A stretch of 16,666 nt of DNA. Source: a virus (lineage: Duplodnaviria; Heunggongvirae; Uroviricota; Caudoviricetes). The notes below the pieces were generated by a model. The model was given only the letters and a program-made list of their open reading frames with translations, did no database searches and was not told the DNA's origin. The position numbers were made by a program, and so were the translations under genes. Shown piece by piece: positions 12,501-16,666 of the stretch. The stretch covers positions 1 through 16,666 of IMG/VR virus record IMGVR_UViG_2585427766_000008. One strand, 5' to 3'. The number at the start of each line of letters is the position of its first letter. Positions within the stretch are counted from its first letter, which is position 1.

Positions 12501-12811
12501 TATTCACTCCAGTACTTTTCCGGGCGGGCAATACCCGGACCACATTCCACGGTGTATTCCACCAGGTCTACGCCGAGGCGGGTCAGGTCAGCAAACCAGT
12601 CGCCAGAAGGTTTTTTCTCCAGCTCAACCATTTTACGGTCAGCCAGATAATCCAGTTCGCGGCGCAGTTCCAGCGGTGTGGTGTCCGGGTAGATGGCGCG
12701 GGACACGTCCAGCAGCAACGTTTCACTGGCGGTGTAAGGGCGGGTTTTGTTCAGGGCAACCAGCAAACTCCAGCGCAGGGATTCGCGGCGTACCCGGGTA
12801 ATATCGACCAT
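12500..12811 (-). CDS. Hypothetical protein (Mu gp26 position)
   Basis: 103-aa ORF whose ends abut both neighbours; no recognisable motif. Confidence 0.4.
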   Translation of the reverse strand: MVDITRVRRESLRWSLLVALNKTRPYTASETLLLDVSRAIYPDTTPLELRRELDYLADRKMVELEKKPSGDWFADLTRLGVDLVEYTVECGPGIARPEKYWSE

Positions 12812-13137
12812 TATTGACCTCCGGTATTGCGGTACTGCTGTACCACTTCCAGTTTGTTATAAAGCGCGTCCAGTTTGGCCTCGATGACTGTCTGGCCACG
12901 GATATAATCCTCGCGACGGACATAATTCAGCGGTAAATCCGCTTTAAATCGCATAAATTCTTTTTCCAGCTCGCCCCAGTTGGAGGCGGACTGTTGCAGG
13001 GCCTGTTCAAGGGAGGCGAATCGTGCCGCCTGGCGTTCTTCTGTTTTACTGAACAACCATTTGGCGAGCCCTCCCACAAACCCCATGAAGGTGAGCAGAA
13101 AACTCACCACCGTCCAGAATTCAACCTGCAGTGTCAT
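12811..13137 (-). CDS. Small membrane protein with N-terminal TM helix and coiled-coil region (Mu gp25-like)
   Basis: 108-aa ORF with the hydrophobic N-terminal segment WTVVSFLLTFMGFVGGLAKWLF followed by charged coiled-coil-like sequence; it lies between the spanin pair and the packaging genes. Confidence 0.45.
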   Translation of the reverse strand: MTLQVEFWTVVSFLLTFMGFVGGLAKWLFSKTEERQAARFASLEQALQQSASNWGELEKEFMRFKADLPLNYVRREDYIRGQTVIEAKLDALYNKLEVVQQYRNTGGQ

Positions 13138-13784
13138 TTCTGTAATCCTTCCCGTTCATCCAGTAACGCGTTTATCTGGTTCCGCCAGCGACGACATTGT
13201 CCTGCGTTGTCGATGATGTTGGCGAGAACGTCACGCTGGGAGACACCCGAATCGCGTAACCGGGTGTCAGTGGTTTCAGGTTGCCCGGTCGCTGTGCCAG
13301 AGCGGGTGCCAGCGGCGGCAACTGAGTCTGAATGACCGGTGTCGACGGATGCGTTGTCATATCCGAGTGCGGCGTTGTACTGGCGCACGAAACCGCGAGT
13401 AAACACGCACTCAATGGGATGGCTCTTACCTTTTTCATCAATCCAGCGCTGTGTGACATCGTTAATTTGCCCCTGTAGTTGTTTGTTCCGGCTCTCCAGT
13501 TGAGCAATCTGCTCAAGATAACCGGCTTCAGCCCGCTGCCCGGCGGCCACCTGCTCCTGATACCGTCTGGCCCAGGCCCGCAGCGCAGCATTCTCAAGCG
13601 TTGCCTGCTCCGTTTTGTACGCGTCAAATGCTGACTGCAACTGACTGAGCGCGGTATCACCGTCACGCTTTGCAGAGTCATGACCACTTCTGTATCCCAT
13701 GGCATACAGGCCGACCAGAAAGGCATTGATAAGAATGGCCAGCAGAATGCCGCGCCACGGCAGCTTTTTAACCAGATGCCGCAC
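13134..13784 (-). CDS. i-spanin (Rz-like inner-membrane spanin component)
   Basis: N-terminal TM segment (ILLAILINAFLVGLYAMGY) followed by a long periplasmic coiled-coil region (Q/A/L/E-rich). The track ORF starts at 13886 and would overlap the endolysin by 119 nt; a GTG at 13782-13784 preceded by GGGGAGG is the more likely start. The start position was worked out by codon arithmetic from the track translation. Confidence 0.6.
   Translation of the reverse strand: MRHLVKKLPWRGILLAILINAFLVGLYAMGYRSGHDSAKRDGDTALSQLQSAFDAYKTEQATLENAALRAWARRYQEQVAAGQRAEAGYLEQIAQLESRNKQLQGQINDVTQRWIDEKGKSHPIECVFTRGFVRQYNAALGYDNASVDTGHSDSVAAAGTRSGTATGQPETTDTRLRDSGVSQRDVLANIIDNAGQCRRWRNQINALLDEREGLQK
13172..13438 (-). 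CDS. o-spanin (Rz1-like outer-membrane lipoprotein) embedded in the +1 frame of the i-spanin gene
   Basis: Internal ATG at residue 122 of the 13172-13801 track ORF gives an 88-aa product, MKKVRAIPLSACLLAVSC..., with a lipoprotein signal, a lipobox-like LAVSC and a Pro-rich mature region (PVIQTQLPPLAPALAQRPGNLKPLTPG). It lies entirely inside the i-spanin ORF. Confidence 0.65.
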   Translation of the reverse strand: MKKVRAIPLSACLLAVSCASTTPHSDMTTHPSTPVIQTQLPPLAPALAQRPGNLKPLTPGYAIRVSPSVTFSPTSSTTQDNVVAGGTR

Positions 13785-14502
13785 AACTGCTGCCTCCCCA
13801 TGTGAGATATCGCGGTGCCAGTTCGCGCAGGATGCGCTGCGGATAATGGCGGTTCTCCCGCCAGCTGGCCGCATTGCGTCCGGCATTCACCGTGGCGACA
13901 TGTCCGAACCAGCGGGTGCTGTCCAGACCTTTCTGTGATGCAAGCCGCCTGTCCCGTTGTACCCAGCCCAGACCACCGTTATAGCCCGACAGTGTCATGG
14001 CCATACGCTCGCAGTCACTGGCGGCGCTGACACGCTGCCACAGCCAGCGGTCATAGCTGACCAGCGCCCGGATAGCCCATGCCGGATTAAACGGCTCACG
14101 ACTGCTCAGCATCGGTATCAACTGGCTTATCCAGTCGGCAGTGGCAGGCATGAACTGCGCCAGTCCCTGAGCGCCAGCCGGCGAGATCGCATCAGGTCGC
14201 CAGCCGCTTTCCTGATGCAGTTGCGCGGCGAAATCGGCCACCGGCGCAGACAGTCCCCATTCAAGCCGGGCATTACGGATCACATCATCGCGATACTGCA
14301 GCGCAGCCTGCGGGGGCTGCGCTGCGCATGCCTGGCTGAAAAAGCCGCCACACCAGAGCAGCCAGACAATCACCAGGTTGCCAGCAAGCTGCCACCAGAA
14401 GCTGTATTTATCGTTACGTGGTTCTCCGTGTCTGATGGCGGTTACGCCCAGACCAAAGGCGAACAGAATAATGAGGGTGATTTGAGGCCAGTTCATGGTC
14501 AC
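13768..14502 (-). CDS. Endolysin, lytic transglycosylase type (SLT domain) with N-terminal membrane-anchor / SAR-like region
   Basis: 244-aa ORF containing the SLT catalytic-region motif (LHQESGWRPDAISPAGAQGLAQFMPATA). Two hydrophobic segments in the first ~60 residues. Overlaps the upstream membrane-protein gene by 4 nt. Confidence 0.8.
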   Translation of the reverse strand: MTMNWPQITLIILFAFGLGVTAIRHGEPRNDKYSFWWQLAGNLVIVWLLWCGGFFSQACAAQPPQAALQYRDDVIRNARLEWGLSAPVADFAAQLHQESGWRPDAISPAGAQGLAQFMPATADWISQLIPMLSSREPFNPAWAIRALVSYDRWLWQRVSAASDCERMAMTLSGYNGGLGWVQRDRRLASQKGLDSTRWFGHVATVNAGRNAASWRENRHYPQRILRELAPRYLTWGGSSCAASG

Positions 14503-14849
14503 AGTCCTGTTGCCACAGCCAGGCAGACCGCTGCAACAATCAGTGCACGGCGGATTAACGCAGCAGAAAACACCAGGTGAAGGCCGGTCTGTACCGGGAA
14601 ACGCCCTTCAGCCATCAGCCTGTCGTCATGTTTCAGGTACTGACCGGGACGGGCTTTGGGGAAGAGCGAACGGTCAAGCCAGTAACCCAGCACTGCTGCC
14701 AGCGTGATAAGTGCCAGCTTGTAGATCACAACAGGCAACTGCTGTGGCGAGACCAGAGCGATGATGCCCAGCAACAGCACTGAGGTCAGCAGCCAGCCGC
14801 TGAGGCGAGGTTTTTTAACAGGGGGAATGAATTTTTTCAGGTTTTTCAT
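14499..14849 (-). CDS. Putative holin / small membrane protein with three predicted TM helices
   Basis: The ATG at 14847-14849 is preceded by GAGGAG with a 6-nt spacer; the track's longer ORF starts at a GTG at 14882 with no RBS. The 116-aa product has three hydrophobic segments and sits first in the lysis cassette. Holin assignment is positional. Confidence 0.45.
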   Translation of the reverse strand: MKNLKKFIPPVKKPRLSGWLLTSVLLLGIIALVSPQQLPVVIYKLALITLAAVLGYWLDRSLFPKARPGQYLKHDDRLMAEGRFPVQTGLHLVFSAALIRRALIVAAVCLAVATGL

Positions 14850-14963
14850 GTGTGTCTCCTCGTTTGGTGGAGACAGCATCACAAATGTGGCGGGATACGG
14901 ATTTTAAACAGCGTTAATAGTGAAGATGTAAACGTGCACTGCATGATGACTTTGAAAGAACGA

Positions 14964-14991
14964 CCAGCCCGGTACCCGAACACCGGGCTGG
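14964..14991 (-). terminator. Inverted repeat hairpin (10-bp stem, 8-nt loop) in the lysis / methyltransferase intergenic region; candidate minus-strand terminator or regulator site
   Basis: CCAGCCCGGT (14964-14973) pairs perfectly with ACCGGGCTGG (14982-14991). On the minus strand it is followed by UCGUUCUUUCAAAG. Confidence 0.35.
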
Positions 14992-15037
14992 CCATCGCCC
15001 CACAGGAATGCGCTGTGAGCCGACCGAGGTTCAGTCA

Positions 15038-15096
15038 GTCTCGCGAGACCAGACTAGCCTGCCATATTTTTTATAATTGTAAAAGGCTTACAGATT
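15038..15096 (+). promoter_or_regulatory. Candidate promoter of the methyltransferase gene with an operator-like palindrome
   Basis: Perfect -10 hexamer TATAAT at 15072-15077, about 20 nt upstream of the ATG at 15097; AAAGG RBS-like element 10 nt before the start. A perfect 12-bp palindrome GTCTCGCGAGAC (15038-15049) sits where a -35 would be; no good -35 hexamer. Confidence 0.4.
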
Positions 15097-15867
15097 ATGA
15101 AAATGCAGACATTACCCATCGTTCCATGGATTGGTGGCAAACGCCGCCTTGCAAAACACATCCTGCCGCTGTTTCCGGCGCATGAATGTTATGTGGAGCC
15201 GTTTTGTGGGGCAGCAGCGCTCTATTTTCTTAAGGTACCCGGCAAGATCGAAGTCATTAATGATATCAACGGTGAACTGGTGAACCTGTATCGGGTGGTA
15301 AAACATCATCTGGAAGAATTTGTACGCCAGTTCAAATGGGCGCTGGTCAGCCGGCAGATCTACAAATGGCTGCAGATCACCCCGGAAGAAACACTGACGG
15401 ATATCCAGCGTGCAGCACGGTTCTACTACCTTCAGAAGCAGGCGTTTGGAGGCAAGGTGGCGGAGCACAGCTTTGGTACCTCCACCATATCCCCGCCACG
15501 CTTCAACCTGCTGCGTATTGAAGAAGAACTGTCAGCGGCACACCTGCGGCTTTCCAGAACGGTCATAGAACACATGGACTGGCAACAGTGCATAGAACGA
15601 TATGATCGCCCGCATACGTTGTTCTACTGTGACCCTCCATACTGGGGAACGGAAGGTTATGGTGTGGAGTTCGGACTAGAAAATTATGATCATATGGCAG
15701 ATTTAGCACGCAGGATCAAAGGGAAGATGATTATATCGGTGAACGATATCCCGGAAATGCGGCAGGCATTCAACGGTCTAAATATTCAGTCGGTTGATAT
15801 CAGCTACAACCTCAAGATCACTGGCAAATCCAGTCGCAAGAAGGAACTCATTATCCTCAACTTTTGA
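15097..15867 (+). CDS. DNA N6-adenine methyltransferase, D12 class (Dam-like), orphan
   Basis: 256-aa ORF with the N-terminal AdoMet-binding motif (PWIGGKRRLAKHILPLFP...YVEPFCGAAALYF) and the catalytic DPPY motif (FYCDPPYWGTEGYG). No restriction-endonuclease partner is visible in the window. Confidence 0.85.
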   Translation: MKMQTLPIVPWIGGKRRLAKHILPLFPAHECYVEPFCGAAALYFLKVPGKIEVINDINGELVNLYRVVKHHLEEFVRQFKWALVSRQIYKWLQITPEETLTDIQRAARFYYLQKQAFGGKVAEHSFGTSTISPPRFNLLRIEEELSAAHLRLSRTVIEHMDWQQCIERYDRPHTLFYCDPPYWGTEGYGVEFGLENYDHMADLARRIKGKMIISVNDIPEMRQAFNGLNIQSVDISYNLKITGKSSRKKELIILNF

Positions 15868-16231
15868 CCGAATAGTAAGACTTCATGCAGTGAATCAAGT
15901 ACTGCATGAAGTCAAGGGCTGGTTTTGTGTACCAAAAATAAACAGTGATAGCGGTAATAATTCCCATAACTAGAACACCACGTATAATCCAGAACGTACG
16001 TTTCTGCGTGTCTAGTCGCGCAGAAATACTGCTAAATACACCAGCCACGTCATCTTTAATGAAGGAATATTCCTTATTAATCTGTTTTTCTTTGTATTCA
16101 ATTTCTTCGCCTAAGGCCTTTATAGATTGCATCTGGTTCGAAAGTGCCAGCCAGATTAACGTTGCAGCAAAAATGCATCCCAGAAGAATTATTGTGTTTG
16201 TTATCCCTTGGCCTGACCATTTCGTAGCCAC
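15857..16231 (-). CDS. Hypothetical small membrane protein (two predicted TM helices) in AT-rich DNA
   Basis: 124-aa ORF with hydrophobic segments ITNTIILLGCIFAATLIWLAL and FWIIRGVLVMGIITAITVYFWY flanking a charged K/E-rich segment. It starts at a GTG with no convincing RBS, and its 3' end passes through the 13-bp hairpin and overlaps the methyltransferase stop. An alternative plus-strand ORF covers part of the same DNA. Confidence 0.35.
   Translation of the reverse strand: MATKWSGQGITNTIILLGCIFAATLIWLALSNQMQSIKALGEEIEYKEKQINKEYSFIKDDVAGVFSSISARLDTQKRTFWIIRGVLVMGIITAITVYFWYTKPALDFMQYLIHCMKSYYSVKS
15879..15913. terminator. Perfect 13-bp-stem hairpin downstream of the methyltransferase gene; candidate bidirectional terminator
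   Basis: GACTTCATGCAGT (15879-15891) pairs with ACTGCATGAAGTC (15901-15913) around a 9-nt loop. It starts 12 nt after the methyltransferase stop. There is a U-rich tract a few nt downstream on the plus strand and a partly U-rich tract on the minus strand. Confidence 0.4.
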
Positions 16232-16303
16232 TTTGAATTGGGTAGCTACGATAACAGAGGCAACAGGAATGCCAAGTATATGGTTCTGGATATCTGAAAA
16301 CGC

Positions 16304-16666
16304 GGTAATGACTCCAACTTATTGATAGTGTTTTATGTTCAGATAATGCCCGATGACTTTGTCATGCAGCTCCACCGATTTTGAGAACGACAGCGACTTC
16401 CGTCCCAGCCGTGCCAGGTGCTGCCTCAGATTCAGGTTATGCCGCTCAATTCGCTGCGTATATCGCTTGCTGATTACGTGCAGCTTTCCCTTCAGGCGGG
16501 ATTCATACAGCGGCCAGCCATCCGTCATCCATATCACCACGTCAAAGGGTGACAGCAGGCTCATAAGACGCCCCAGCGTCGCCATAGTGCGTTCACCGAA
16601 TACGTGCGCAACAACCGTCTTCCGGAGACTGTCATACGCGTAAAACAGCCAGCGCTGGCGCGATTT
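16304..16666 (-). mobile_element. IS1, partial (terminal inverted repeat plus 3' part of insB; element continues beyond the window end)
   Basis: The plus strand from 16304 reads GGTAATGACTCCAACTTATTGATAGTGTTTTATGTTCAG..., the reverse complement of the canonical IS1 end, followed by sequence encoding the canonical InsB C-terminus. Confidence 0.9.
16319..16666 (-). CDS. insB: IS1 transposase InsB (InsAB' C-terminal portion); 5' end outside window
   Basis: The translation ends ...[88 protein letters not shown], matching IS1 InsB as I recall it. The frame stays open upstream to the window edge (116 codons, 16319-16666). Confidence 0.9.

What the first reader, a model, noticed from the sequence alone, without database searches (positions are those of the whole stretch)
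13768..14849. Unusual lysis-gene architecture: three-helix membrane protein followed by a transglycosylase with two N-terminal hydrophobic segments
The endolysin is an SLT-type transglycosylase whose first ~60 residues contain two separate hydrophobic stretches before the catalytic domain; a classic SAR endolysin has a single weakly hydrophobic segment. The upstream gene encodes a 3-TM protein rather than the 2-TM pinholin usually paired with SAR endolysins. The export and activation mechanism may differ from the textbook models.
Basis: partly seen in the sequence, partly recalled or inferred. Interest (0 to 1): 0.35.

Follow-up and report, generated by a model that had tools for sequence, protein, structure and literature searches.

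The report
Endolysin fused to captured two-helix membrane gene
The cell-wall-cutting enzyme of this Mu-like E. coli prophage carries, at its front end, a small two-helix membrane protein that is a separate gene in related phages; the second helix most likely serves as a cleavable export signal, so this is a modest new variant of a known "self-exported" phage lysis enzyme rather than a new lysis mechanism.

Summary
On the minus strand lie a 116-aa Holin_2-3 protein (14849..14499) and a 242-aa SLT lytic transglycosylase (14496..13768). In the transglycosylase, two hydrophobic helices (residues 6-21 and 33-53) precede a globular domain that starts near residue 61.

The window is a BcepMu-like prophage found in 637 of 5426 complete E. 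coli genomes.

Residues 1-58 are a discrete gene module (phrog_5479):
- It stands alone, ending 1-5 residues after an invariant GGFF, in Xanthomonas, Burkholderia and Rhizobium phages.
- It is a separate gene just upstream of the endolysin in 48 Pseudomonas B3-like phages.
- It is fused in frame in phage B3 and in enterobacterial prophages.

Helix 2 is followed by A-x-A. Ala is kept at -3 (95/98) and at -1 (96/98), while -2 takes ten different residues, as at a signal peptidase I site. Helix 2 is not Gly/Ala-rich like SAR domains. Most family members (111/129) have a single signal-like segment.

Best reading: a Sec-exported endolysin whose export signal is helix 2 of a captured membrane gene. 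It is probably cleaved into a 58-aa membrane peptide and a 184-aa periplasmic enzyme, which is unleashed when the holin depolarises the membrane. Cleavage and timing are inferred, not shown.

Verdict: new variant of a known kind, moderate interest.

The parts
14499..14849 (-). Putative holin, 116 aa, with three hydrophobic segments (the third contains an internal Arg-Arg) and a basic N-terminus
   Evidence: Pfam Holin_2-3 PF13272, E 4.7e-41. phrog_1528 'holin', E 2.9e-54. Hydropathy peaks. Ribosome-binding site GAGGAGA upstream of the ATG.
13768..14496 (-). Endolysin precursor, 242 aa (27.1 kDa): a two-helix membrane module fused to an SLT lytic transglycosylase
   Evidence: RefSeq annotates the same 242-aa product, WP_001104429.1.
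14323..14496 (-). Residues 1-58: captured two-helix module (phrog_5479 family), collinear with free-standing 52-58-aa phage proteins
   Evidence: phrog_5479, E 8.6e-14 over residues 1-54. Alignment with JBD25 gp25, FoX5 gp66, Mica gp63 and a Rhizobium phage protein: P4, Q5 and GGFF are invariant. In IMG/VR, 64 loci are fused and 13 free-standing.
14434..14481 (-). Hydrophobic segment 1 (residues 6-21, ITLIILFAFGLGVTAI), predicted to run from periplasm to cytoplasm
   Evidence: Hydropathy. AF2 helix 3-21. The N-terminal tail carries 0.10 Lys+Arg on average, against 3.15 in the loop, over 92 sequences.
14338..14400 (-). Hydrophobic segment 2 (residues 33-53, FWWQLAGNLVIVWLLWCGGFF), predicted to act as the hydrophobic core of the export signal. 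GGFF is invariant.
   Evidence: GGFF in 98/98. AF2 helix 33-49 with a break at G50-G51. Gly/Ala/Ser/Thr fraction 0.19.
14323..14331 (-). A56-C57-A58: predicted signal peptidase I site, with cleavage before A59
   Evidence: At -3, Ala in 95/98. At -2, ten different residues plus gaps. At -1, Ala in 96/98. At +1, Ala in 95/98.
13771..14322 (-). Predicted mature periplasmic lytic transglycosylase, residues 59-242 (184 aa, 20.5 kDa, pI 9.8). Catalytic Glu96 (codon 14209-14211). Cys162/Cys238 pair.
   Evidence: Pfam SLT. E96 and S97 invariant in 115/115. Aligns to the catalytic region of Slt70. AF2 pLDDT 98-99. Foldseek best matches are MltF, MltE, MltC and Slt70. Cys162 and Cys238 co-occur in 96/115.
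13134..13784 (-). i-spanin (Rz-like), 216 aa from GTG 13784, with an N-terminal membrane helix. It overlaps the endolysin 3' end by 17 nt.
   Evidence: phrog_1403 'Rz-like spanin', E 1.3e-91. Ribosome-binding site GGAGG 8 nt upstream. RefSeq 'lysis system spanin subunit'.
13172..13438 (-). o-spanin (Rz1-like), 88 aa, embedded in the +1 frame inside the i-spanin gene. Lipobox LAVSC (Cys18); the mature part is Pro/Thr/Ser-rich.
   Evidence: Read directly from the sequence. No HMM hit. Not annotated in RefSeq.
12811..13137 (-). 108-aa protein with an N-terminal membrane helix and a helical cytoplasmic part. It sits at the genome position of Mu gp25 (releasin), but sequence membership is not shown.
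   Evidence: phrog_462. 52% identical to phiE255 gp54. No Pfam DUF2730 hit. No similarity to Mu gp25 or JBD25 gp29.

Best explanation
This is the lysis cassette of a BcepMu-like E. coli prophage: putative holin, endolysin, embedded two-component spanin, then a small membrane protein.

The endolysin is a family-1 lytic transglycosylase that does not wait for a holin hole. It is exported by the host Sec system.

Its unusual N-terminus arose when an independent 52-58-aa two-helix membrane-protein gene (phrog_5479) was fused in frame to the enzyme. That gene lies between holin and endolysin in Pseudomonas B3-like phages. The fusion removed the enzyme's own signal peptide.

Predicted topology:
- the short uncharged N-tail is in the periplasm;
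- helix 1 runs inward;
- the basic loop is in the cytoplasm;
- helix 2 runs outward and acts as an internal signal sequence that carries the SLT domain across the membrane.

Signal peptidase I then most likely cuts after Ala56-x-Ala58. This would give a 58-aa membrane peptide of the same extent as the free-standing proteins, and a 184-aa soluble periplasmic enzyme of the same extent as the predicted mature enzymes of BcepMu-type and JBD25-type phages.

The enzyme would accumulate in the periplasm, held in check while the membrane is energised. Lysis would follow when the holin collapses the membrane potential, and the spanins would then break the outer membrane.

Shown here by computation:
- gene structure;
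- family memberships;
- the modular origin of residues 1-58;
- conservation of the A-x-A motif;
- the charge distribution;
- the domain boundary.

Inferred:
- Sec export;
- the topology;
- cleavage;
- restraint by membrane potential;
- the holin function of the upstream gene.

The function of the two-helix peptide itself is unknown.
For: Module:
- Residues 1-54 hit phrog_5479, a 53-position family, at E 8.6e-14.
- Free-standing homologues end 1-5 residues after GGFF: FoX5 gp66, Mica gp63, a Rhizobium phage and 13 IMG/VR loci.
- P4, Q5 and GGFF are invariant across ten diverse modules, which also share a recurring KHG..P loop motif.

Three states of the same cassette:
- phiE255: holin, then an endolysin with a single signal.
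- JBD25 and 47 other Pseudomonas phages: holin, a 52-aa two-helix gene, an ATGA overlap, then an endolysin with its own signal.
- B3 and this prophage: the fused form.
- B3 differs from JBD25 at the junction by a 53-nt gap. The missing stretch holds the stop/start overlap and the endolysin's own signal peptide.

Signal:
- The -3/-1 Ala conservation with a free -2 position.
- In the wider family 111/129 representatives have one hydrophobic segment, 85 have a strict A-x-A after it and 24 have a lipobox-like motif.
- The motif tracks the end of the hydrophobic segment. It does not sit at a fixed distance from the catalytic domain.
- There is no alternative start between the two segments.

Topology: Lys+Arg average 0.10 in the N-tail, 3.15 in the loop and 0.77 in the first 14 residues after GGFF.

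Not SAR-like: Gly/Ala/Ser/Thr fraction is 0.19, against 0.56 for Mu gp22 (an experimentally shown SAR, PMC9239132) and 0.53 for Mica.

Domain:
- The globular part begins near residue 61.
- The fold matches MltF, MltE and Slt70.
- The conserved Cys162/Cys238 pair fits a periplasmic protein.

Precedent: secreted, signal-peptidase-processed endolysins restrained by membrane potential are established for Lys44 of phage fOg44 (review PMC6116005).

Functionality: the fused form occurs in plaque-forming phage B3, in the phage isolates PhiKM and KP12, and in 630 E. coli genomes.
Against: - No experiment or dedicated predictor (SignalP, DeepTMHMM) was available. Cleavage rests on a motif.
- The hydrophobic stretch of helix 2 is 21 residues, long for a cleaved signal, and the motif lies 5 residues beyond it. 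Long hydrophobic cores favour uncleaved signal anchors (principle in PMC2120157, shown for the ER). The invariant Gly50-Gly51 break may shorten the effective core to about 17 residues, but this is an inference.
- Chamblee et al. 2022 (PMC9239132) classified the closely related Pseudomonas SLT endolysins as SAR endolysins. That classification was bioinformatic.
- A free, active transglycosylase in the periplasm of a Gram-negative cell long before lysis needs a restraint that has not been shown for this family.
- Invariance of GGFF and conservation of helix 1 suggest the module does more than export, which this model does not explain.
- The holin function of Holin_2-3 proteins is an annotation only. 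No experimental paper was found.
Confidence: 0.6

Rival explanations
1. Uncleaved double anchor or SAR-like tether. The two helices stay attached and hold the transglycosylase at the inner membrane, inactive or out of reach. Holin-driven depolarisation, perhaps helped by the downstream 108-aa membrane protein acting like the Mu releasin, lets helix 2 or the whole hairpin leave the bilayer and frees the enzyme.
For: - The hydrophobic core of 21 residues is more typical of anchors than of cleaved signals (principle in PMC2120157).
- Related Pseudomonas SLT endolysins were called SAR endolysins, and in Mu-like phages they are paired with DUF2730 proteins (PMC9239132).
- A membrane protein with the same architecture as gp25 sits at the same position here.
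- Cys49 in helix 2 is kept in 82/98 sequences. This recalls the thiol switch of P1 Lyz (from my own knowledge).
Against: - Helix 2 has 19% Gly/Ala/Ser/Thr, against 53-56% in SAR domains.
- Strict conservation of Ala at -3 and -1 with a free -2 has no role in an uncleaved anchor.
- Releasing a two-helix hairpin from the bilayer is energetically much harder than releasing one weak helix.
- The 108-aa protein has no detectable DUF2730 or gp25 similarity.
- Cys49 is replaced by Ser, Trp or Ala in 16/98 sequences, and the phiE255 signal has no Cys.
Confidence: 0.25
2. Holin-endolysin chimera. The two-helix module is itself a pinholin-like or antiholin-like lysis regulator, and the fusion couples a membrane-lesion function to the enzyme.
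For: - In 48 Pseudomonas phages the module lies inside the lysis cassette, translationally coupled to the endolysin. Some depositors label it 'holin' or 'phage lysis protein'.
- Its size (52-58 aa) and two helices resemble pinholins.
Against: - Free-standing copies lie among early or replication genes (primase/helicase, DUF669, AAA ATPase, DNA polymerase III beta, methylase). They are not in lysis cassettes.
- Phage Mica carries one in addition to its own class II holin, SAR endolysin and spanins.
- The predicted topology is N-out/C-out, and there is no charged C-terminal tail.
- A separate holin-family gene is already present.
Confidence: 0.1
3. Accidental, non-functional fusion in a decaying prophage.
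For: - The window carries an IS1 fragment next to a truncated gene.
- Prophages often decay.
Against: - The fused reading frame is intact in 98 distinct sequences from Escherichia, Salmonella, Pectobacterium, Serratia, Dickeya, Pantoea and others, with hydrophobicity preserved.
- It is present in the phage isolates B3, PhiKM and KP12.
- The catalytic Glu-Ser is intact.
Confidence: 0.03

Closest known systems
Endolysins of BcepMu-type phages (phiE255 gp52, BcepMu gp22, KS10 gp9)
   Same: Same syntenic cassette: Holin_2-3 holin, SLT endolysin, Rz/Rz1, small membrane protein, gp26-like and gp27-like genes. The catalytic domain is about 60% identical. An N-terminal export signal followed by small-x-small precedes the conserved PP/IP..AA..YR motif. 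The KS10 paper already noted a SignalP site at residues 44/45 and an N-terminus unlike that of BcepMu (PMC2628397).
   Different: phiE255 has one short signal (MRVLIAFLVVLLGAAAPAAA|Q), with no helix 1 and no GGFF module.
Pseudomonas B3-like phages: B3 ORF25 (fused), JBD25 gp25 + gp26 (split)
   Same: B3 ORF25 has the same fused architecture (two helices, GGFF, AKA|DE, SLT). JBD25 has the same parts as two genes. Catalytic domains are 59-60% identical to this one.
   Different: In the split form the endolysin keeps its own signal, which contains a possible lipobox (LLSAC). Those phages carry a Pfam DUF2730 protein downstream, whereas this prophage has an unrelated-looking 108-aa protein.
Secreted, signal-peptide endolysins (Lys44 of Oenococcus phage fOg44)
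   Same: Holin-independent Sec export, removal of the signal by signal peptidase, accumulation of mature enzyme outside the membrane, and activation when the membrane potential collapses (PMC6116005). This is the working model proposed here.
   Different: Lys44 has an ordinary N-terminal signal and a Gram-positive host. Here the signal is internal, preceded by another membrane helix, and the leftover 'signal' would be a 58-aa two-helix protein homologous to independent phage genes.
SAR endolysins (P1 Lyz, phage 21 R21, Mu gp22)
   Same: Export without a holin hole, and dependence on membrane energisation for restraint. They occur in Mu-like phages (PMC9239132, PMC6116005).
   Different: SAR domains are single, Gly/Ala-rich and uncleaved. 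Here there are two segments, helix 2 is rich in Trp, Leu, Val and Ile, and a conserved A-x-A follows it.
Host family-1 lytic transglycosylases (MltF catalytic module, MltE, MltC, Slt70)
   Same: Fold and the catalytic Glu-Ser motif. They are exported by the Sec system as periplasmic proteins or lipoproteins.
   Different: None of them has a two-helix inner-membrane pre-region. Sequence identity is only about 20%.
E. coli leader peptidase (LepB) topology
   Same: N-terminus out, helix 1, cytoplasmic basic loop, helix 2, periplasmic catalytic domain. This is from my own knowledge of the classic topology model. Related Lep-derived constructs are used in PMC2120157 to show that internal signals can be cleaved when their hydrophobic core is short.
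   Different: It is only a topological analogy, with no homology. Native LepB is not cleaved after helix 2.

Membership tests
SLT / family-1 lytic transglycosylase (PF01464) | Profile match above the curated threshold | tested here: met
   53.8 bits against a cut-off of 21.3, residues 93-189. phrog_669 endolysin, E 2.3e-70.
SLT / family-1 lytic transglycosylase (PF01464) | Catalytic Glu followed by Ser in the E-S motif | tested here: met
   E96-S97 aligns to the QES motif of Slt70 and is invariant in 115/115 homologues.
SLT / family-1 lytic transglycosylase (PF01464) | Goose-lysozyme-like all-helical fold | tested here: met
   AF2 pLDDT 92.7. Foldseek probability 1.00 to MltF, MltE, MltC and Slt70 over 185-199 columns.
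SLT / family-1 lytic transglycosylase (PF01464) | Formation of 1,6-anhydro-muropeptides | not testable with these tools
   This is an enzymatic assay.
SAR endolysin | Single N-terminal membrane helix rich in weakly hydrophobic residues (Gly, Ala, Ser, Thr) | tested here: not met
   There are two segments. Helix 2 has a Gly/Ala/Ser/Thr fraction of 0.19, against 0.56 (Mu gp22) and 0.53 (Mica).
SAR endolysin | Signal not removed by signal peptidase | tested here: inconclusive
   By sequence, a conserved A-x-A site follows helix 2, which argues for cleavage. No processing data exist.
SAR endolysin | Release from the membrane and activation on depolarisation | not testable with these tools
   Needs fractionation and energy-poison experiments.
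Sec/SPase I signal-peptide (secreted) endolysin | Basic n-region, hydrophobic core, and c-region with small residues at -3 and -1 | tested here: met
   The loop carries 3 Lys/Arg. The core is residues 33-53. A56 is kept in 95/98 and A58 in 96/98, with a variable -2.
Sec/SPase I signal-peptide (secreted) endolysin | Signal located at the extreme N-terminus | tested here: not met
   It is preceded by helix 1 (residues 6-21), and no internal start codon is available.
Sec/SPase I signal-peptide (secreted) endolysin | Processing to a mature soluble form in vivo | not testable with these tools
   Needs a western blot, N-terminal sequencing or mass spectrometry.
phrog_5479 two-helix membrane proteins | Profile match over the whole 53-position model, with the PQ...GGFF signature | tested here: met
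   E 8.6e-14, model positions 1-53. P4, Q5, G50, G51, F52 and F53 are invariant.
phrog_5479 two-helix membrane proteins | Free-standing protein of about 52-58 aa | tested here: not met
   Here it is fused in frame to the SLT domain. Free-standing members end 1-5 residues after GGFF.
Holin_2-3 (PF13272), upstream gene | Profile match above threshold | tested here: met
   139.8 bits against a cut-off of 27.
Holin_2-3 (PF13272), upstream gene | Timed lethal membrane permeabilisation (holin function) | not testable with these tools
   No experimental paper on this family was found in the library.
Pinholin (S21 type), considered for residues 1-58 | Separate gene, N-in/C-in start topology, charged cytoplasmic C-terminus | tested here: not met
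   It is fused. The charge distribution predicts N-out/C-out. Free-standing members end at GGFF with no charged tail.
Two-component spanin (Rz/Rz1) | Inner-membrane subunit with an N-terminal helix, plus an embedded outer-membrane lipoprotein subunit | tested here: met
   phrog_1403, E 1.3e-91. The embedded +1-frame ORF has the lipobox LAVSC.
Releasin / DUF2730 (PF10805), considered for the 108-aa protein | Profile match to DUF2730 | tested here: not met
   No hit at E <= 0.1. No BLASTP similarity to Mu gp25 or JBD25 gp29 (E 0.64). Only the position and the N-terminal-helix architecture are shared.

The most novel reading that the evidence does not exclude
The precursor is a small 'polyprotein' processed by host signal peptidase. 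One translation product would yield, in fixed 1:1 ratio, a secreted lytic transglycosylase and a 58-aa two-helix membrane peptide that is itself a lysis regulator. The peptide might tether or inhibit the mature enzyme at the energised membrane, or modulate the Holin_2-3 holin.

Alternatively, the uncleaved hairpin could be a new, two-helix kind of signal-anchor-release domain.

Either would be an endolysin control mode not among those found in the papers searched here (canonical, SAR, plain signal peptide, releasin).
Probability: 0.15. Interest if true: 0.6.

Novelty: new variant of a known kind. Interest (0 to 1): 0.38.

Why it matters
Exported endolysins are currently sorted into two kinds: those with a cleaved signal peptide and those with a SAR anchor. 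This family shows a third way of acquiring an export signal: fusing a pre-existing small membrane-protein gene onto the enzyme.

Split and fused states coexist in closely related phages, which makes a natural experiment.

The cassette is common. It occurs in about 12% of complete E. coli genomes and in Salmonella, Pectobacterium, Serratia and Pseudomonas phages. Annotation pipelines call the product only 'SLT domain-containing protein'.

Practical consequences:
- It cautions against labelling every N-terminal hydrophobic segment of a Gram-negative endolysin as SAR.
- It gives a precise boundary (Ala59) for producing the soluble enzyme.
- It links an uncharacterised small phage membrane-protein family (phrog_5479) to a testable phenotype.

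It does not by itself open a long-standing question.

Tried and rejected
- A word-indexed protein search with residues 1-63 alone returned only 10 short fragments and no new architectures.
- The first AlphaFold run, with 40 close homologues, gave pLDDT 65 and was not used for fold comparison. A 115-sequence alignment fixed this.
- I tested whether the 108-aa downstream protein is a Mu gp25-type releasin. It has no Pfam DUF2730 hit and no BLASTP similarity to Mu gp25 or JBD25 gp29. Only the position and architecture match, so it was not filed as a member.
- I tested whether the E. coli allele P0034 (1104 member sequences), with an odd helix-1 region, is a frameshifted derivative. The DNA alignment shows a divergent mosaic patch, not a clean frameshift.
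- I looked for lysis genes next to free-standing modules in FoX5, Mica, a Rhizobium phage and IMG/VR loci. The neighbours are early or replication genes or unknowns.
- NCBIfam gave no family for the module, the holin or the spanins.
- The promoter/terminator scan of 12700-15200 was at background level: 1 promoter-like site against 1.2 expected, and 4 terminator-like sites against 2.1.
- Literature searches found no description of a two-segment SLT endolysin and no experimental work on Holin_2-3.
- A lipoprotein reading of LLWC was rejected, because Trp at -1 does not fit a lipobox.
- An internal start giving a one-segment signal was rejected. The only candidate, GTG at Val42, lies inside helix 2 and has no ribosome-binding site.
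Full report
**1. What is at the coordinates**

All genes of the region are on the minus strand.

- The upstream gene runs from ATG 14849 to the stop at 14499 (116 aa) and has a GAGGAGA ribosome-binding site.
- The endolysin starts at ATG 14496 (an alternative GTG at 14502 overlaps the holin stop) and ends at 13768 (242 aa).
- The endolysin has two hydrophobic stretches with 19-residue Kyte-Doolittle means of 1.82 and 1.76. They are separated by the charged loop RHGEPRNDK and lie ahead of a Pfam SLT domain at residues 93-189.
- The upstream protein has three hydrophobic peaks. The third contains Arg-Arg.

**2. Context**

- The left part of the window encodes Mu-type late genes: a gp27-like small terminase, the Mu portal, Mu F, tail sheath and tail tube.
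- The lysis region is 100% identical to the E. coli DLI.5a chromosome. It is found in 637 of 5426 complete E. coli genomes, and 630 of them hold at least 80% of the query.
- It is 97.5% identical to Escherichia phage PhiKM, classified in Bcepmuvirus.
- Cassette order: Holin_2-3 protein; SLT endolysin; Rz-like i-spanin (phrog_1403, E 1e-91); an embedded +1-frame lipoprotein o-spanin (lipobox LAVSC); a 108-aa protein with an N-terminal membrane helix; then gp26-like and gp27-like genes.
- Adjacent genes overlap by 4-17 nt, so they are probably translationally coupled.

**3. The N-terminus is a gene in its own right**

- Residues 1-54 match phrog_5479, a 53-position family of unknown function, at E 8.6e-14.
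- Members of that family are free-standing proteins. Examples:
  - Xanthomonas FoX5 gp66 (56 aa, ending LLWWGGFFSQP*);
  - Burkholderia Mica gp63 and BcepB1A gp72;
  - a Rhizobium phage protein.
- An alignment of ten diverse modules has invariant Pro4, Gln5 and Gly-Gly-Phe-Phe, and a recurring KHG..P loop motif.
- In 48 Pseudomonas B3-like phages the module is a separate 52-aa gene. It lies between the Holin_2-3 gene and the SLT endolysin, with an ATGA stop/start overlap, and that endolysin has its own signal, MKRLLTLGLLGLLSACQPAFA|TD.
- In phage B3 itself the module is fused in frame, as here.
- At the junction B3 differs from JBD25 by a 53-nt gap. The missing stretch holds exactly the stop/start overlap and the endolysin's own signal peptide. 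Because 53 is 2 mod 3, losing it joins the two reading frames.
- phiE255, a BcepMu relative, lacks the module. Its endolysin has one short signal, MRVLIAFLVVLLGAAAPAAA|QVPPEAL.
- Among the 80 best IMG/VR loci, 64 are fused with a Holin_2-3 gene upstream. Thirteen are free-standing, end 1-5 residues after GGFF, and have no SLT or holin homologue within 1.5 kb.
- The free-standing copies lie among early or replication genes, and Mica has a full separate lysis cassette. The module is therefore not intrinsically a lysis gene.

**4. Helix 2 looks like a cleavable signal**

Across 98 distinct fused sequences:

| Position | Relative to the predicted cut | Residues seen |
|---|---|---|
| 56 | -3 | Ala in 95, Val in 3 |
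| 57 | -2 | N, R, H, C, S, D, Q, A, Y or K |
| 58 | -1 | Ala in 96, Ser in 2 |
| 59 | +1 | Ala in 95 |

- This is the (-3,-1) pattern of signal peptidase I sites.
- The window's Cys57 is simply the free -2 position.
- An exhaustive search found 4429 relatives. Of 129 N-terminally complete representatives:
  - 111 have one hydrophobic segment, 14 have two or more, and 4 have none;
  - 85 have a strict A-x-A after the last segment;
  - 24 have a lipobox-like motif.
- The motif follows the hydrophobic segment at varying distances from the conserved domain. It belongs to the signal, not to the enzyme.
- Helix 2 contains 19% Gly/Ala/Ser/Thr. The experimentally proven SAR domain of Mu gp22 has 56% and the annotated Mica SAR endolysin 53%.
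- No start codon with a ribosome-binding site lies between the two helices, so helix 2 is the only export signal the SLT domain has.

**5. Topology**

- Over 92 sequences, the N-tail (mean 7 residues) carries 0.10 Lys+Arg.
- The loop carries 3.15 Lys+Arg against 1.59 Asp+Glu.
- The first 14 residues after GGFF carry 0.77 Lys+Arg, mostly the variable -2 Arg.
- The positive-inside rule therefore predicts N-terminus out, loop in, SLT domain out. This is the topology of E. coli leader peptidase (from my own knowledge).

**6. Structure**

- With a 115-sequence alignment, AlphaFold gives pLDDT 92.7.
- Helices lie at 3-21, 33-49 and 52-58 (pLDDT 65-87), with a break at Gly50-Gly51.
- The globular domain runs from about residue 61 at pLDDT 98-99.
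- Its best solved-structure matches are the catalytic module of MltF, then MltE, MltC and Slt70.
- Glu96-Ser97 aligns to the catalytic motif of Slt70 and is invariant in 115/115.
- Cys162 and Cys238 co-occur in 96/115, which fits a disulfide in a periplasmic protein (inference).

**7. Most likely mechanism**

1. The precursor inserts as a hairpin, and helix 2 drives Sec translocation of the enzyme.
2. Signal peptidase I cuts between Ala58 and Ala59. This would give:
   - a 6.7-kDa peptide of the same extent as the free-standing proteins;
   - a 20.5-kDa enzyme of the same extent as the predicted mature enzymes of phiE255 and JBD25.
3. The enzyme is held in check until the Holin_2-3 protein collapses the membrane potential. 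This is the scheme established for secreted endolysins such as Lys44 (PMC6116005).
4. The spanins then disrupt the outer membrane.

Gene structure, homologies, motif conservation, charge bias and domain boundary are computed results. Export, cleavage, restraint by membrane potential and holin function are inferences.

I give the full model 0.6. The narrower statement, a holin-independent exported endolysin whose signal is helix 2 of a captured gene, I would put near 0.85.

**8. Rivals**

- An uncleaved anchor or a SAR-like hairpin (0.25) is favoured by the long 21-residue hydrophobic core and by the SAR label that Chamblee et al. gave the Pseudomonas relatives (PMC9239132). It does not explain the A-x-A conservation or the composition.
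- A holin-like role for the module (0.1) is weakened by its location outside lysis cassettes elsewhere and by its predicted topology.
- A decayed pseudogene (0.03) is excluded in practice by conservation and by its presence in the phage isolates B3, PhiKM and KP12.

**9. Comparison and novelty**

- The closest things are the BcepMu/phiE255, KS10 and B3/JBD25 endolysins.
- The KS10 paper noted a different N-terminus and a SignalP site at 44/45 (PMC2628397).
- The Mu releasin paper listed the Pseudomonas enzymes as SAR transglycosylases.
- I found no paper that describes the two-segment form, the independent origin of its first 58 residues, or the split/fused alternation.
- It is a new variant of the exported-endolysin theme, not a new kind of system.
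- The holin having more than two helices is not remarkable.

**10. Limits**

- No topology or signal predictor and no experiment were available.
- The function of the two-helix peptide is unknown, as is the reason GGFF is invariant.
- The 108-aa downstream protein shares position and architecture with the Mu releasin but shows no sequence signal.

Noticed in passing
window 15857-16585: An IS1 transposase C-terminal fragment lies at 16319-16585 on the minus strand (PF03400, E 6e-48). Next to it is a 124-aa ORF (15857-16231, minus strand) that matches only positions 304-411 of the 412-position family phrog_5023. In E. coli DLI.5a a 401-aa gene sits next to the Dam methylase. The prophage gene here looks truncated by an IS1 insertion.
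   Followed up: partly
window 13172-13438 (minus strand): The embedded o-spanin (88 aa, lipobox LAVSC, Pro/Thr-rich) lies in the +1 frame inside the i-spanin gene. It is not annotated in the RefSeq record and hits no HMM library.
   Followed up: partly
window 12811-13137 (minus strand): A 108-aa protein with an N-terminal membrane helix occupies the position that Mu gp25 (releasin) and JBD25 gp29 (DUF2730) occupy in their genomes. It is 52% identical to phiE255 gp54 but shows no detectable DUF2730 similarity. It may be an analogue or a very distant relative.
   Followed up: partly
window 14350-14470; L011 900-1020; L012 1520-1660: The middle of the two-helix module (end of helix 1, the loop, start of helix 2) is a hypervariable mosaic patch among E. 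coli prophage alleles. The flanks (MxWPQI and LLWCGGFFSQAxAAQPP) and the neighbouring holin gene are nearly identical at DNA level.
   Followed up: partly
L008 2075-2140 (JBD25 gp26); family representatives: The JBD25 endolysin signal contains a lipobox (LLSAC). About 24 of 129 family representatives look like lipoproteins, so this endolysin family uses soluble, lipoprotein and two-helix export forms.
   Followed up: no
protein P0247 (303 aa): One representative appears to have the Holin_2-3 protein fused in frame to the signal-bearing SLT endolysin. It could be a real fusion or a sequencing or gene-calling artefact.
   Followed up: no
window 15097-15867 (plus strand): A D12-class N6-adenine DNA methyltransferase (Dam-like) is transcribed divergently from the lysis cassette, with a 247-nt intergenic region between them. 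That region presumably holds the late lysis promoter. Only one weak sigma-70-like match was found, at background level.
   Followed up: partly
L079, L088, L010 (free-standing modules): Several free-standing phrog_5479 genes sit directly beside a DUF669-like gene, and beside an AAA ATPase or helicase gene of a replication module in L079 and L010. This recurring neighbourhood might hint at the peptide's original role.
   Followed up: no
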